Source: a virus (taxonomy: Duplodnaviria > Caudoviricetes). Taken from it: a stretch of DNA of 26,399 bases. Below the pieces are notes generated by a model. That model was not told the DNA's origin. It saw only the letters and a list, made by a program, of their open reading frames with translations, and made no database searches. The position numbers and the translations under genes are program-made. Below, in pieces: positions 741 to 16,350 of the stretch (the stretch's first letter is position 1; each line of letters begins with the position of its first letter). Location of the stretch: IMG/VR virus record IMGVR_UViG_3300005611_000171, positions 1 through 26,399 of that record. One strand, written 5' to 3'.

Positions 741-752
741 AGGAGCGAATAC

Positions 753-1937: not shown

Positions 1938-1951
1938 CAATTTGTTATAAA
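1923..1951 (+). promoter_or_regulatory. Possible sigma70 promoter for a small RNA
   Basis: TTGGCA(1923-28)-17 nt-TATAAA(1946-51) with TG extension. The last T of the -10 is missing, so this is weak. Confidence 0.35.
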
Positions 1952-1957
1952 GGTCAG

Positions 1958-2022
1958 GAGATTTCCCTTATCTCACTTCCGACTACTCCTCCTCTAGGCC
2001 ACAAGGATCGTGGCCTTTTTTT
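1958..2022 (+). ncRNA. Candidate CU-rich small RNA or structured 3' UTR
   Basis: Hairpin GAGAT-TTCCCTT-ATCTC, single-stranded ACTCCTCCTCT (anti-SD-like), then an intrinsic terminator. Confidence 0.3.
1996..2022 (+). terminator. Intrinsic terminator
   Basis: AGGCCAC-aaggatc-GTGGCCT followed by TTTTTT. Confidence 0.85.
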
Positions 2023-2079: not shown

Positions 2080-2109
2080 TGTGGTGTTCATCACATAGGA
2101 GCGAATGAT

Positions 2110-2926: not shown

Positions 2927-3521
2927 TTTAGAGCAAGGCACTTATGAATGGCTACAAGCCAGATTGGGATGTCCTAGCGGCTCTGGGTTCGCAAAATTGA
3001 TAACTTCTAGCGGACAGCCTTCATCATCGGCTGAGACGTATATCAATCAGTTGATCGCTGAGTTGATTACAGGTGAATCGACTTATGTGCAGAAGACCGA
3101 ATGGATGGAACGTGGCAACGAACTAGAGCCGATTGCCAGAATGAACTACGAACTGGAGACAGATTGTGAAGTCACTGAAGTTGGTTTCTGTATGCACGAC
3201 AGCCTTAAATGCGGTGTGTCACCTGATGGATTGGTTGGTGATGATGGTGGCCTTGAAATCAAATGCCCTGCTCCATCGACTCATGTTAAGTATCTACGGA
3301 AGGGAAGACTTCCGACAGAGTATAAAGCACAGGTCATGGGTTGCTTATGGATTACAGAAAGGGAATGGTGGGACTTCATGTCGTTTCATCCGCAAATGCC
3401 CAACTTGCTGATCCGTGTAGAACGTGATGAAGAATACATTGAACAACTTGAACGCCTGGTGACTCATGCTTGCCAGATCATTGAGAAAGAAGTAGCGGAA
3501 ATTAAGGAGAAGCTATTATGA
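2913..3521 (+). CDS. YqaJ / lambda-exonuclease-family protein
   Basis: EQGTYEWLQARLG, MERGNELEP, SPDGLV, LEIKCP, Y..QV motifs. Start moved to ATG 2913 (MKILDLEQ). Confidence 0.9.
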   Translation: MKILDLEQGTYEWLQARLGCPSGSGFAKLITSSGQPSSSAETYINQLIAELITGESTYVQKTEWMERGNELEPIARMNYELETDCEVTEVGFCMHDSLKCGVSPDGLVGDDGGLEIKCPAPSTHVKYLRKGRLPTEYKAQVMGCLWITEREWWDFMSFHPQMPNLLIRVERDEEYIEQLERLVTHACQIIEKEVAEIKEKLL

Positions 3522-3775
3522 GTGAACAATACGACAACAACCTCAGAGGTGCGCTGTTTAAGAACCGAAAGCGTACGGAAGAACGTCAGCCTGAGTACAC
3601 GGGTAACTGTGAAATCAATGGTCAGCAGTTCTGGGTATCTGCTTGGGTCAAAGAATCCAAGAACGGTGAGAAGTTCTTTTCGATGGCATACACGCCTAAA
3701 GAGCAGCCTGTAACATCCAGTGTTACACCTGTAACGTCAGACGTTACAAACGTAAATGACTCCATTCCTTTCTGA
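3518..3775 (+). CDS. Small SSB-like ssDNA-binding protein
   Basis: PEYTG...FWVSAW...GEKFFS core, low-complexity linker, acidic SSB-type C-terminal tail DSIPF. Adjacent to ERF and exonuclease. Confidence 0.65.
   Translation: MSEQYDNNLRGALFKNRKRTEERQPEYTGNCEINGQQFWVSAWVKESKNGEKFFSMAYTPKEQPVTSSVTPVTSDVTNVNDSIPF
3709..3748. repeat. Tandem pair of inverted repeats TGTAAC-N7-GTTACA (21-bp period)
   Basis: TGTAACAtccagTGTTACA (3709-27) and TGTAACGTcagACGTTACA (3730-48). Confidence 0.8.
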
Positions 3776-3778
3776 CAT

Positions 3779-3802
3779 AAAAAAGCCCGCGCAATGCGGG
3801 CT
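3779..3802 (-). terminator. Intrinsic terminator oriented on the minus strand
   Basis: Minus strand reads AGCCCGC-attgc-GCGGGCT-TTTTT. On + the stem is preceded by A6 and has no following T run. Confidence 0.75.
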
Positions 3803-3822
3803 ACCACTGGAGCGAACGTGGT
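3779..3822 (-). ncRNA. Candidate ~44-nt anti-RBS small RNA
   Basis: ACCAC-GUUCGCUCCA-GUGGU hairpin plus terminator, starting 7 nt downstream of TGcTATACT. The loop is complementary to the GGAGCGAA RBS motifs at 742 and 2098. Confidence 0.55.
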
Positions 3823-3828
3823 GTCGCT

Positions 3829-3837
3829 AGTATAGCA
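3829..3837 (-). promoter_or_regulatory. Extended -10 promoter (minus strand)
   Basis: Reverse complement reads TG-C-TATACT. Only a weak -35 (TTATCC) at 17-nt spacing. Confidence 0.55.
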
Positions 3838-3849
3838 CTGAGGCTTAGG

Positions 3850-4038
3850 ATGGATAAGACTTCATACAAGCTAACGGACGAAGATGTGCAACAGATTTGT
3901 GAATTGTTAGCAGAACAGGAACGGCTCAAGACGGAGTGGCGTAAGGTATCAAACCCATCTCTTGCAGATAAGTTTGGTGTCACGACTTCCACCATTGAGT
4001 ACATTAAACGCAACAAACTCAGGAAGTACGCAAAATGA
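3850..4038 (+). CDS. Small HTH DNA-binding protein
   Basis: KLTDEDVQQI...LADKFGVTTSTIEYI helix-turn-helix pattern. Confidence 0.7.
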   Translation: MDKTSYKLTDEDVQQICELLAEQERLKTEWRKVSNPSLADKFGVTTSTIEYIKRNKLRKYAK

Positions 4039-5403: not shown

Positions 5404-5977
5404 TAGACGCTGTTCTAACTGCCGGAAGAAGGTGGCTGCATCTGAGTCGATCATCTCTAGGTTTAAGGCGTTCTGCACCTACGAATGCCTTAAAGAGTAC
5501 ACAGAGAAAAACGCAGACAAGCTAGCCGACAAGACCAGGAAGCAAAAGCGTCAGGAAGATCGTGTCCGCAAGGAAAAGCTAAAGACCAAAGGCCAGTGGA
5601 CGAAAGAAGCGCAAGCAGCAGTTAATGCTTACGTTCGGTGGCGTGATCGAAACAAAAATTGTATTTCCTGCAATGCATCGCTGAAATCTGAAGCACTGGG
5701 TGGTGGCTATGACGCAGGGCATTACCGATCACGAGGTAGTGCGCCACATTTGCGTTTCAGAACTGACCAGATTTTCGGACAATGCAAGAAGTGCAATCGT
5801 TACTTGTCAGGCAATGTAGATAAAATGCGTGTCGGTATCGTCTGGCGTTACGGACAGGAATACCTAGATCGCATTGAAATGGATAACACGCCAAAGCATT
5901 ACAGCATTGATGACCTAAAACGCATCAAGCGCATTTTCACAAAGAAACTTAGACTAAGGTCTAATACAGATAATTGA
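5390..5977 (+). CDS. ninG: NinG/Rap-like structure-specific endonuclease
   Basis: AQAAVNAYVRWRD, CISC, DAGHYRSRGSAPHLRF, QCKKCNRYLSGN. Start moved to ATG 5390. Confidence 0.9.
   Translation: MKAVNRRCSNCRKKVAASESIISRFKAFCTYECLKEYTEKNADKLADKTRKQKRQEDRVRKEKLKTKGQWTKEAQAAVNAYVRWRDRNKNCISCNASLKSEALGGGYDAGHYRSRGSAPHLRFRTDQIFGQCKKCNRYLSGNVDKMRVGIVWRYGQEYLDRIEMDNTPKHYSIDDLKRIKRIFTKKLRLRSNTDN
5949..5968. promoter_or_regulatory. Operator-like palindrome, copy 2
   Basis: TTAGAC-TAAG-GTCTAA-TACA, a perfect 6-4-6 palindrome. Candidate -10 TAGTAT at 5988 and RBS AGGAG at 6011 follow. Confidence 0.6.
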
Positions 5978-6022: not shown

Positions 6023-6235
6023 ATGAACTTAATCGGATTTAACCCAAATTACCCTGCGCTTTATATGTGTGAAGCATTATCATCAATCGTGGAAGTCAGC
6101 CATTGTTGGAGCGATGATGAAGTAGAAAGCATCATTGAGCAAGCAATGGTCTTAATCAATGAGCGCAGGAAAAGTTTTACTCAATATGAGTTGTCGAAGT
6201 TGAATATACTTTTGGGATTAGCAAACCGTCCATAA
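6023..6235 (+). CDS. Hypothetical protein
   Basis: Strong RBS AGGAG 7 nt upstream; 70 aa. Confidence 0.65.
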   Translation: MNLIGFNPNYPALYMCEALSSIVEVSHCWSDDEVESIIEQAMVLINERRKSFTQYELSKLNILLGLANRP

Positions 6236-6634: not shown

Positions 6635-7034
6635 TGTGCCGGACGGATGTTGCAAGCATCCTAGTAGACCGGACTGAAGAACAAAGGAAGATTGACCAGT
6701 GTCCACATTCCGGCACAGGGTTTATTGTAGCGAATCCGCTACATTTCTCAACACTTCAGTCATTCCGTCCGTAATACAGTCGCATTGTGCTGTAGCGCGA
6801 AAAAGCAAGACTTTGCAGCCTGACCTTTGAGGACGGGACAAACAGCGTAAAAGGTGACCAGTATACACATGGTGTATACACGGTGAGGCAGGTGTTACGA
6901 GCCTGACGGAGAAACCCCGTAAGAATCGTTGCTGATGACTAGGCGCAAACGGACTAATTGCTAGATAAACACATTGAGGTATGGGTGAGGTCACCTAATA
7001 GTCCTCTAAATGACAACTATGGCCTGAAGAAAGT
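6635..7034 (+). ncRNA. Long structured non-coding leader or RNA
   Basis: The only large coding gap in the window. Stems at 6635-43/6709-17, 6645-49/6657-61, 6726-32/6737-43, 6861-68/6872-79, 6852-59/6989-96, 6951-56/6999-7004. Confidence 0.55.
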
Positions 7035-8998: not shown

Positions 8999-9353
8999 GG
9001 TTCGCAAATCTAATCGTGGATACATGGCTTGCTGCCCAGTTCATGATGACAAGAATCCAAGCATGACAATTACTGAGACTGACGATGGAAAGGTGCTATG
9101 CCACTGCTTCAGTTGTGGTGCGCGTGGATCAGATGTCGTTGAGGCGTTAGATCTGACACCAGGCGAGTTGTTTTCAGGTGAGTTCACGGGAACATACGAT
9201 GCCAAGTGCAAGCTCCGCAAAACAGAACTAGAAGACAACATGGTTGTCACGATTTACGAGCAAGATAAGAAAGCAGGTAAATACCTGACGCATGGCGACT
9301 ATAAGCGTTACAAGTTAGCCAAGGCGCGGATCGAACAACTAGAAGCGATATAA
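8964..9353 (+). CDS. Stand-alone CHC2 (primase-type) zinc-finger protein
   Basis: CCPVHDDKNPSM...CHCFSCG. 129 aa with no TOPRIM domain. Start moved to ATG 8964. Confidence 0.8.
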   Translation: MSLETILARLSKVRKSNRGYMACCPVHDDKNPSMTITETDDGKVLCHCFSCGARGSDVVEALDLTPGELFSGEFTGTYDAKCKLRKTELEDNMVVTIYEQDKKAGKYLTHGDYKRYKLAKARIEQLEAI

Positions 9354-9370
9354 GACTAATGTCTAATACA
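9351..9370. promoter_or_regulatory. Operator-like palindrome, copy 3
   Basis: TAAGACTAATGTCTAATACA, 18/20 identical to 5949-5968. Confidence 0.6.
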
Positions 9371-9392: not shown

Positions 9393-9422
9393 ACTCTGGC
9401 TGTCTTACATAAGGAGCGACAC

Positions 9423-9581
9423 ATGGATACATTATTTTTAGCCTTGGTTTTTGGCACAGCCTTAATCTTCACGCTGATCTTCTCAGCAGCGATCAACTGG
9501 CTACTCAAGCGTTACTTTGGTGTTAGCATCTACCCAGAAGATTTCTTTAAGTCGGACAAAGAGGTTTGGAAGAAATGGTAG
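9423..9581 (+). CDS. Small single-pass membrane protein (52 aa; not in the ORF track)
   Basis: MDTLFLALVFGTALIFTLIFSAAINWLLKRYFGVSIYPEDFFKSDKEVWKKW. Strong RBS AAGGAG 6 nt upstream. Confidence 0.7.
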   Translation: MDTLFLALVFGTALIFTLIFSAAINWLLKRYFGVSIYPEDFFKSDKEVWKKW

Positions 9582-9932: not shown

Positions 9933-9995
9933 TAGCTCTACTGGACAGGCAGGAGAAATCCTTGCTCAATGAGCAGGTAACCTGGTGGAGCTAAA

Positions 9996-10220
9996 ATGTC
10001 AGATTCCGTAAATCATCCTAGTCATTACACGCAAGGCAGTATTGAATGCATTGATGCGATGAAGGCGTGTTCATCCCGCGAAGAATTCCTTGGTTATCTA
10101 CGTCTAACCCATATGAAGTACAACTGGCGCGTCAACCACAAGCATGGCAATCCAGTAGAAGACGCACAGAAGGCACAATGGTTCTGGGATCGGTATGTAG
10201 AGGAGTTGACTAATGGCTGA
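9996..10220 (+). CDS. DUF3310 family protein (SaV / T7 gp1.7-related)
   Basis: DSVNHPSHY..G.IECIDA...KY.WR...K....ED..KA.W signature. Confidence 0.85.
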   Translation: MSDSVNHPSHYTQGSIECIDAMKACSSREEFLGYLRLTHMKYNWRVNHKHGNPVEDAQKAQWFWDRYVEELTNG

Positions 10221-16313: not shown

Positions 16314-16350
16314 TCGTTTGTTTTAATCAACTGATGTAAAGGAGCCGAAA

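What the first reader, a model, noticed from the sequence alone, without database searches (positions are those of the whole stretch)
3779..3837. Tiny antisense-oriented RNA whose loop matches the RBS of several distant phage genes
Seen in sequence: the only minus-strand transcription unit I could find. It has an extended -10 TGcTATACT (3837-3829), a start 7 nt later at 3822, and RNA ACCAC-GUUCGCUCCA-GUGGU-AGCCCGC-AUUGC-GCGGGCU-UUUUU (~44 nt, no ORF). The loop pairs with GGAGCGAAU at 742-750 and 2098-2106 (8 Watson-Crick pairs plus 1 G-U), GGAGCGA at 9413-19 (7 bp), UGGAGCuAA at 9986-94 (8 of 9), and the capsid RBS with one bulge. Inference: a phage-encoded trans-acting sRNA silencing a regulon of its own genes by RBS occlusion, possibly a repressor-free timing or immunity switch. 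I know no described family for it but could not search.
Basis: partly seen in the sequence, partly recalled or inferred. Interest (0 to 1): 0.85.

Follow-up and report, generated by a model that had tools for sequence, protein, structure and literature searches.

The report
Tiny phage RNA reading ribosome-site addresses
A group of uncultured phages keeps a predicted 44-base, two-hairpin RNA gene whose open loop mirrors the ribosome-landing site of a few of their own genes, and loop and landing sites differ in step between phage groups, so the RNA likely turns those genes down together.

Summary
The unit (-10 box, hairpin with a 10-nt loop, terminator; minus strand, after ssb) is kept in 20 distinct copies from uncultured phages. 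Stems are exchanged wholesale, while the loop core GCUCC, the -10 hexamer and the U-tail stay. The loop's complement lies at ribosome-binding sites (RBS): GGAGCGA in 8 of 47 gene families of the close clade versus 1 of 112 in relatives without the unit. In the distant clade, whose loops mostly end CCAUU, AATGGAGC marks 10 of 37 families versus 0 of 112. Best reading: a trans-acting sRNA that dampens translation of erf, a phosphoesterase and other non-structural genes (0.65). Transcription and repression are untested. The 9986 and capsid matches are weak, three non-RBS matches were missed, and nothing supports an immunity role. No Rfam match and no cultured carrier was found. The scan noted similar anti-RBS loops in other phages before. 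In mycobacteriophage Adephagia the lone reverse copy of the unexplained SAS motif also folds into a 10-nt loop, suggesting a shared principle.

The parts
3829..3837 (-). Extended -10 promoter element (TG-c-TATACT); no -35 box
   Evidence: TATACT in 11 and TATAAT in 4 of 15 phages, TG in 12 of 15, neighbouring columns less conserved. Function predicted.
3803..3822 (-). Hairpin 1: 5-bp stem with the 10-nt loop GUUCGCUCCA (3817-3808), the predicted seed
   Evidence: Compensatory A-U/U-A swap in 5 of 10 close sequences; stems replaced in distant members. GCUCC invariant in 15 of 15 and predicted unpaired.
3779..3802 (-). Intrinsic terminator: 7-bp stem, 5-nt loop, U-tract
   Evidence: U-tract on this strand in the members; UUCG loop in 7 of 7 distant members.
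2098..2107 (+). Predicted main target: RBS of erf (2110-2724), first gene after a sigma-70-like promoter (TTGCAA-17-TACTAT, 2051-2079)
   Evidence: 10 contiguous pairs; net cofold -15.4 kcal/mol. GGAGCGA in 15 of 15 contigs with a UCGCUCC loop. Erf identity.
742..750 (+). Predicted target: RBS of the 394-aa HTH/metallophosphoesterase-like gene (753-1937) after the endolysin
   Evidence: 9 contiguous pairs. GGAGCGAA unchanged in the window and all 9 related loci (7 phages) while the next bases vary.
9413..9419 (+). Predicted target: RBS of a 52-aa hydrophobic ORF (9423-9581) with its own TATAAT
   Evidence: 7 pairs. GGAGCGA kept in 2 of 3 related phages, GGAGCAA in the third.
9986..9994 (+). 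Weak candidate target: RBS of the DUF3310 gene (9996-10220)
   Evidence: 8 of 9 pairs but only 6 contiguous; TGGAGCTAA conserved in 3 related phages.
16341..16349 (+).
   Evidence: 5 contiguous pairs; net cofold -3.7 kcal/mol; no relative covered this site.
3518..3775 (+). ssb gene upstream; the RNA gene points towards its 3' end
   Evidence: PHROG ssb families.
3850..4038 (+). 62-aa ORF of unknown function; its start region overlaps the RNA's promoter
   Evidence: Weak HTH_38 hit below cut-off. Own GAGG RBS.

Best explanation
The element is a conserved stand-alone gene predicted to make a 44-nt RNA from a host-type extended -10 promoter, and its open 10-nt loop likely pairs with an extended ribosome-binding site (GGAGCGA here) carried by a chosen set of the phage's own non-structural genes, which would block the ribosome and dampen their translation together. 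Shown: the anatomy, its conservation with compensatory stem changes, and the match between loop and RBS extension, clade by clade. Inferred: that host RNA polymerase transcribes it from early in infection; that it accumulates with time and genome copy number; that the loop starts pairing and the weak stem then opens; and that the result is repression. The likely role is a dosage limiter or timer on erf and other promoter-proximal genes. Membership of the regulon would be written in the few bases next to the GGAG core, so a gene joins or leaves by point mutation.
For: Twenty distinct copies at the same place. A model of the RNA alone, without the promoter, finds 13 of 13 close copies at 63.8 bits or more and 6 of 7 distant copies at E 0.009 or less. 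Close alignment: 99.2% of cells paired, 0 of 500 shuffles as high; distant: 5 pairs with changes on both sides. Strand: -10 hexamer in 15 of 15, U-tract, and UUCG loops in 7 of 7 distant members. RBS test by site: GGAGCGA at 22 of 100 GGAG-RBSs of the close clade, 5 of 205 non-RBS GGAG, 1 of 223 RBSs of non-carriers; AATGGAGC at 14 of 70 RBSs of the distant clade, 2 of 100 close, 0 of 223 non-carriers. By gene family: 8 of 47 versus 1 of 112 (p 0.0003); 10 of 37 versus 2 of 47 (p 0.004) and 0 of 112. erf RBS: GGAGCGA in 15 of 15 UCG-loop contigs, AATGGAGCAA in 2 of 2 UAG-loop phages, each sister to a UCG-loop phage on the Erf tree. Across 20 convergent units in 5 to 7 lineages, own erf RBS pairs better than foreign (median permutation p 0.003-0.025 by energy). 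The 8 GGAGCGA families hold no recognised virion gene.
Against: No transcript or repression data. Fold energy does not pick the strand: the plus strand folds better in 8 of 13 close members. Covariation is coarse: bases beyond the 7-mer do not follow the loop within the close clade (L003, L004); the UAG loop faces an A-A mismatch, not a compensated pair; and L031's loop pairs better with foreign erf RBSs (10) than its own (7). GGAGCGA close versus distant clade is not significant by family (8 of 47 versus 2 of 37, p 0.17). One of 11 non-carriers (L189) has a GGAGCGA erf RBS. Lineage F (4 units), lineage E (2) and L221 show no excess match by Watson-Crick run; lineages were drawn after seeing the sequences; the G-U run measure is weaker (90th-percentile p up to 0.21). 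Clades may differ in host and so in RBS habit. RBS calls come from my own simple caller. In the window 3 of the 6 GGAGCGA sites outside the element are not RBSs.
Confidence: 0.65

Rival explanations
1. Cis-antisense RNA, like lambda OOP: the RNA pairs along its whole length with the plus-strand message running from ssb into the next genes and triggers RNase III cutting or transcription collision, uncoupling erf-exo-ssb from downstream genes. The loop would be only a nucleation site.
For: The plus strand has no U-tract here, so read-through message with perfect complementarity is expected. The position after ssb is fixed. OOP acts this way (PMC12197685, part 2 read).
Against: A cis-antisense RNA is complementary to its target whatever its sequence, so this does not explain an invariant GCUCC loop amid exchanged stems or clade-specific RBS extensions kilobases away. 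It may well be a second effect.
Confidence: 0.1
2. The working strand is the plus strand: the hairpin shows GGAGCGA in a loop as a binding site or decoy for an RNA-binding protein (CsrA/RsmA- or RegA-like) that also binds the same motif at the RBSs.
For: It explains loop-RBS covariation equally well. The plus strand folds about as stably. Distant members read ATGGA, an ANGGA match (CsrA consensus recalled, not from a call).
Against: The -10 hexamer with TATACT/TATAAT exchange, the U-tract and the UUCG loops all point to the minus strand. The close clade reads CTGGA, not ANGGA. No such protein family was found among the window ORFs.
Confidence: 0.08
3. A general anti-Shine-Dalgarno RNA aimed mainly at host mRNAs. 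The phage RBS extensions would reflect the host's RBS habit or shared ancestry, not targeting.
For: The loop core CUCC matches any GGAG. The host is unknown. Clades are the unit of most contrasts, so ancestry and host are confounded.
Against: A phage should then avoid the complement at its own RBSs, but carriers are enriched for it: GGAGC at 37 of 100 and 28 of 70 RBSs versus 20 of 223 in non-carriers. The erf RBS switches within the distant clade where the loop switches.
Confidence: 0.09
4. Same pairing, but used for immunity or activation: an RNA kept in a carrier or lysogenic state to silence incoming kin (like P1 C4 or P4 CI), or an RNA that opens or protects the RBSs.
For: Clade-specific loop and RBS pairs look like immunity groups. 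C4 antisense RNA controls ant expression in P1 (PMC8201110, two passages).
Against: No integrase or CI-type repressor in 47 + 24 ORFs; 1 Erf relative, on a 1.9-kb contig, among the species genomes. Pairing covers the SD itself, which by established sRNA mechanism blocks ribosomes.
Confidence: 0.05
5. The GGAGCGAA at 3809 is just a plus-strand RBS for a mini-ORF or for an extended start of the 62-aa gene, next to an ordinary terminator.
For: An in-frame GTG or ATG extends the downstream ORF in 6 of 20 members, and 4-5-codon GTG ORFs follow in 10 of 13 close members.
Against: No ATG or GTG follows in 7 of 7 distant members; the window has GTC at the in-frame place; the downstream gene has its own GAGG; the -10 box and covarying stem would be unexplained.
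Confidence: 0.03

Closest known systems
C/U-rich-loop sRNAs that bind Shine-Dalgarno regions: Listeria LhrC (PMC4132741, abstract and outline seen), M. tuberculosis 6C (PMC6486639, search listing), RsaE/RoxS (PMC6158497, search listing)
   Same: A single-stranded pyrimidine-rich loop predicted to pair with SD regions of several mRNAs and block translation.
   Different: Those are chromosomal, longer, with several redundant motifs, and act on host regulons. This one is a 44-nt phage gene with one loop, and its targets are predicted to be the phage's own genes marked by a clade-specific RBS extension. No Rfam match.
Start-associated sequences (SAS) of cluster K mycobacteriophages (PMC3203893, section 15 part 1 and passages read; PMC11373665, passages)
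   Same: An RBS extended beyond what pairs with 16S rRNA, on non-structural genes, with one copy in the opposite orientation away from gene starts. In Adephagia I found 16 forward copies and 1 reverse copy in the 39.6 kb examined; the reverse copy folds into a 10-nt hairpin loop.
   Different: SAS is 13 bp in 11-19 copies; here the tag is 7-8 bp at about 3 sites in the window. The Adephagia hairpin is long and reads in the genes' direction. No sequence relation. The papers leave the SAS role open and name no such RNA in the passages read.
Phage antisense RNAs controlling the phage's own genes: P22 sar, lambda OOP and aQ (PMC12197685, parts 1-2 of 6 read); P1 C4; P4 CI (recalled)
   Same: Small phage RNAs that turn down phage genes by base pairing; sar blocks translation initiation.
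   Different: sar, OOP and aQ act on the overlapping gene; C4 and CI act in immunity regions of temperate phages (recalled detail). Here the predicted targets are several unlinked RBSs, and no lysogeny genes were found.
T4 RegB endoribonuclease (PMC1702504, abstract start in search listing)
   Same: Turns off a set of phage mRNAs through the GGAG motif plus flanking bases.
   Different: RegB is a protein nuclease; here the reader of the motif would be an RNA.

Membership tests
Any Rfam family (incl. RsaE, LhrC, 6C, C4, sar) | Covariance-model match at the gathering score | tested here: not met
   2 matches at E up to 5 in the window, both elsewhere and far below threshold.
C/U-rich-loop anti-SD sRNAs (works-like class) | Unpaired pyrimidine-rich loop complementary to SD | tested here: met
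   CUCC predicted unpaired at 0.96 or more in 15 of 15.
C/U-rich-loop anti-SD sRNAs (works-like class) | Complementarity to several mRNA initiation regions beyond chance | tested here: met
   caveats on own RBS caller and clade confounding.
C/U-rich-loop anti-SD sRNAs (works-like class) | Expressed as a discrete RNA that represses translation by pairing | not tested
   No transcript data were obtained; repression needs a bench test.
Cis-antisense phage RNAs (OOP, sar, aQ) | Overlaps the coding or initiation region of its target on the opposite strand | tested here: inconclusive
   It overlaps only the ssb-ORF3850 gap, not an RBS in use or a coding region; read-through message is likely.
Immunity RNAs (P1 C4, P4 CI) | Temperate phage with lysogeny genes, RNA in an immunity region beside icd/ant or kil | tested here: not met
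   No integrase, CI or antirepressor family in 47 + 24 ORFs; the window is a few kb short of a full genome. Feature list recalled.
Cluster K SAS | 13-bp GGGATAGGAGCCC consensus in 11-19 copies | tested here: not met
   The tag here is GGAGCGA; the RBS lists show no such repeat.
Cluster K SAS | Extended RBS on non-structural genes plus one copy not tied to a gene start that could be read as antisense | tested here: met
   Adephagia comparison. Works-like only.
CsrA/RsmA-binding RNAs | Several ANGGA motifs in loops of the transcribed strand | tested here: not met
   The predicted RNA has no GGA; the plus strand has one site, CTGGA in most close members. Consensus recalled.
Type I toxin-antitoxin | Antitoxin RNA overlapping or beside one small toxin gene with long complementarity | tested here: not met
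   The 52-aa hydrophobic ORF lies 5.6 kb away with 7 pairs; erf and the phosphoesterase pair better.

The most novel reading that the evidence does not exclude
This is the minimal case of a widespread phage control logic: a tiny RNA reads a clade-specific 'address' written next to the Shine-Dalgarno core and so rules a regulon with no regulatory protein. Related Erf-bearing phages carry different short convergent units matched to their own erf RBS (TTGCTCC to GGAGCAA, CTCCTATG to CATAGGAG), and the same logic explains the unexplained SAS motifs of cluster K mycobacteriophages, whose lone reverse copy sits in a 10-nt loop.
Probability: 0.4. Interest if true: 0.88.

Novelty: new variant of a known kind. 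Interest (0 to 1): 0.74.

Why it matters
If true, a phage with no recognised repressor times or caps its recombination and other non-structural genes with a 44-base RNA, and genes enter or leave the regulon by changing two or three bases beside the ribosome-binding site. It gives a concrete, cheap test of an open question: what the start-associated sequences of cluster K mycobacteriophages do (open in 2011 and still called unknown in 2024). RNAs this short are below what long-read phage transcript mapping resolves (about 80 nt; PMC10914365, passage), so the class could have been missed. Natural loop/RBS pairs with different specificity would also be compact, orthogonal translation switches.

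Tried and rejected
Rfam search: no match. Strand by fold energy: uninformative. An exact 18-nt pattern gave 2 true contigs and 4 chance ones. The first loose pattern was mostly chance: of its 120 loci, 5 were clear members on folding. L165 (loop UCUCCUCCCC, after an endolysin), L038, L043, L076, L159 and L291 resemble the unit but were left out of all counts because position or loop differ. One search cut the two lineage-C units short by a coordinate slip; one search repeats the test with a uniform rule, and both results are given. Cultured phages: blastn of the element found only terminator-like scraps; five cultured phages with related Erf or exonuclease held no member. Host: not established; the only genome hit is a 1.9-kb contig in a MAG titled Psychromonas sp.. 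Structural versus non-structural bias inside the window alone (3 of 10 versus 0 of 7 RBSs, counted) is too small to count. A YUNR U-turn motif (recalled) is present in the window's loop but not in the other loop types, so I dropped it. Literature: 9 searches listed no paper on this RNA. The phage structured-RNA catalogue PMC10690425 gave no hit in the supplements that could be read, but its alignment archives and PDFs could not be read, so the motif may be among its unnamed candidates.

Full report
Setting. The window is a 26.4-kb phage contig with all recognised genes on the plus strand: lysis genes, a 394-aa HTH/metallophosphoesterase-like gene, erf, exonuclease, ssb, small ORFs, ninB, ninG, helicase, primase-like gene, then terminase, head and tail genes. 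Relatives run to 30-33 kb, so a few kb between tail and holin are missing; L178 covers the matching stretch. No integrase or CI-type repressor family was found in 47 window ORFs or in 24 ORFs of L178 and L287. The host is unknown: the Erf search of the species genomes returned one 1.9-kb contig, and the nearest cultured Erf proteins by rank (45-57% identity) are from Paraglaciecola, Pseudoalteromonas, Clostridium and Vibrio phages.

Observation. The predicted RNA 3822-3779 folds as a 5-bp stem with a 10-nt loop followed by a terminator (-19.5 kcal/mol, z -3.7). The promoter scan does not list the promoter, since there is no -35 match, but lists the terminator on the minus strand. My detector for '-10, hairpin, terminator' hit 1 of 200 shuffled windows and none with a CTCC loop. 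Rfam has no match. Among 17 GGAG-bearing RBS-like sites the best pairings are erf (10 contiguous), gene 753 (9) and gene 9423 (7); 9986 (6) and capsid (5) are ordinary.

The unit is conserved as an RNA. Protein searches with Ssb, Erf and the 62-aa ORF and pattern scans gave 20 distinct copies, 13 in a close clade (Erf 74-93% identical where covered) and 7 in a distant one (50-56%), all after ssb and facing it where the flanks could be seen. A covariance model of 11 close RNAs, without promoter, recovers all 13 close copies and 6 of 7 distant ones at E 0.009 or less; L030 scores only E 0.39. Pair counts: 99.2% of cells paired and an A-U/U-A swap in 5 of 10 close sequences; 79.5% and 5 doubly changed pairs in an imperfect alignment of the distant ones. 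These shuffle counts are not probabilities. In 15 phages that were also reached by protein search, GCUCC is invariant, the stems share little between clades, and the hexamer is TATACT (11) or TATAAT (4) at a nearly fixed distance; my script looked for that hexamer in a short window, so only its presence and spacing are evidence. All 7 distant terminators have a UUCG loop on the minus strand. Fold energy alone does not pick the strand (plus better in 8 of 13 close, minus better in 7 of 7 distant). The plus-strand mini-ORF reading fails: no ATG or GTG follows in 7 of 7 distant members, and an in-frame start exists in only 6 of 20.

Loop and RBS differ in step. Close-clade loops end CGCUCCA(G) or CGCUCCCG; distant loops end GCUCCAUU (one GCUCCAAUU). 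Using a simple RBS caller of my own, GGAGCGA marks 22 of 100 close-clade RBSs, against 5 of 205 non-RBS GGAG sites, 4 of 70 distant-clade RBSs and 1 of 223 RBSs of Erf relatives that lack this family. AATGGAGC marks 14 of 70 distant, 2 of 100 close and 0 of 223 other RBSs. Counted once per gene family: 8 of 47, 2 of 37 and 1 of 112 for GGAGCGA (close versus others p 0.0003; close versus distant p 0.17, not significant), and 2 of 47, 10 of 37 and 0 of 112 for AATGGAGC (p 0.004 between clades). The erf RBS is GGAGCGA in 15 of 15 contigs with a UCG loop and AATGGAGCAA in the 2 phages with a UAG loop, each sister to a UCG phage on the Erf tree and each on a different stem background. That is not a textbook compensatory change: the changed position becomes a mismatch and pairing moves to the 5' side, and the two RBSs may share one origin by recombination. 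Against fine covariation: positions beyond the 7-mer do not follow the loop in L003 and L004, L031's loop fits foreign RBSs better than its own, and 1 of 11 non-carriers (L189) has GGAGCGA.

A wider set. More distant Erf relatives carry other short convergent '-10, body, terminator' units: TTGCTCC facing a GGAGCAA erf RBS (L232, L235) and CTCCTATG facing CATAGGAG (L225, L229, L234). With 20 units in 7, 6 or 5 lineages, one drawn per lineage, own-RBS pairing beats permuted pairing at median p 0.003, 0.007 and 0.025 by energy (0.005, 0.007, 0.025, where two units were cut short). Lineages E and F and L221 show no excess by Watson-Crick run, the G-U run measure is weaker, and I drew the lineages after seeing the sequences, so this is suggestive only.

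How it most likely works. Shown: anatomy, conservation and complementarity. Inferred: host sigma-70 polymerase makes a 44-nt RNA from the extended -10; the loop pairs with the SD and its extension; the short stem opens (net cofold -15.4 kcal/mol for erf, -12.8 for 9423, -10.6 for 753, -9.7 for 9996, -3.7 for capsid, on 28-nt fragments); the ribosome is shut out. Two of the three best targets (erf, 9423) lie just behind promoter-like boxes, and the third closes the lysis operon, so 'early shut-off' is too narrow; a cap on dosage as RNA and genome copies build up fits better. I give this 0.65. Rivals: cis-antisense action on the read-through message (0.10, and possibly a second effect), host-directed anti-SD RNA with RBS habit set by the host (0.09), a plus-strand protein-binding site (0.08), immunity or activation (0.05), a plain RBS (0.03). 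No transcript data were obtained, so expression is open.

Comparison with what is known. It would work like LhrC, 6C and RsaE (SD-binding pyrimidine loops; abstract or listing seen) but is no member of those families. Known phage RNAs that act on phage genes in the review PMC12197685 (parts 1-2 of 6 read) are cis-acting or tied to lysogeny. T4 RegB reaches a similar end with a protein (listing). The closest genome pattern is the SAS of cluster K mycobacteriophages: extended RBSs on non-structural genes, one copy in reverse, role unknown (PMC3203893 section 15 part 1; PMC11373665 passages). In 39.6 kb of Adephagia I found 16 forward copies and 1 reverse copy, and the reverse copy forms the 10-nt loop of a long predicted hairpin between genes 92 and 93; this is one genome, with no shuffle control. 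Nine literature searches listed no description of this RNA; the alignment files of PMC10690425 could not be read. The scan's own notes hold nothing on this DNA or its look-alikes but several on anti-RBS loops in unrelated phages; these are unchecked leads, not support.

Verdict. A real, conserved, uncatalogued small-RNA gene with comparative support for targeting its own phage's RBSs; a new variant of a known kind. Interest 0.74: strong sequence evidence and a direct handle on the SAS question, but no expression data and no cultured carrier.

Noticed in passing
window 1945-2022 (+): A second possible short RNA between the phosphoesterase gene and the erf promoter: TG-extended -10-like box, small hairpin, unpaired C/U tract ending CTCCTCCTCT, terminator. 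Kept in L003, L004, L178, L181, L296, where the tract's end varies.
   Followed up: partly
window 5951-5967 and 9353-9369 (+): A repeated near-palindrome (AGACTAAnGTCTAATAC) before ORFs 6023 and 9423; 2 copies against 0.13 expected; present in 25 of 305 loci, in L003, L157 and L178 just upstream of erf. Looks like an operator or promoter motif.
   Followed up: partly
L032:8746-8790, L033:9872-9915, L034:8729-8775 (+): A different plus-strand unit (-10, hairpin with CCUCCC or CUCUCCC loop, terminator) upstream of the early genes; its stem and loop partly mirror the GAGGAGAATGT erf RBS of L032 and L034.
   Followed up: partly
L189:8078-8125, L190:7252-7300, L215, L216 (-): Convergent short units with a conserved unpaired CCCTGCC before the terminator that does not match the erf RBS; target unknown.
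   Followed up: partly
L165:272-325 (-): Same architecture (TGTTATACT, hairpin, terminator) with a general anti-SD loop UCUCCUCCCC after an endolysin gene, in a phage not shown to be related.
   Followed up: no
L311:38662-38711 (Adephagia, between genes 92 and 93, +): The single reverse SAS copy lies in the 10-nt loop of a long predicted hairpin.
   Followed up: partly
window 6102-6114 (+): Longest pairing with the loop in the window (13 with G-U), inside ORF 6023-6235 and followed by a 3-codon ATG frame; the ORF had no match in the relatives checked.
   Followed up: partly
L174:4285-4295, L183 (+): The RNA's -10 box overlaps the RBS-to-start spacer of the downstream gene, so the same bases serve both strands.
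   Followed up: no
window 6635-7030: About 400 bases before ORF 7035 with only short ORFs lacking family matches; may hold the replication origin or a structured RNA.
   Followed up: no
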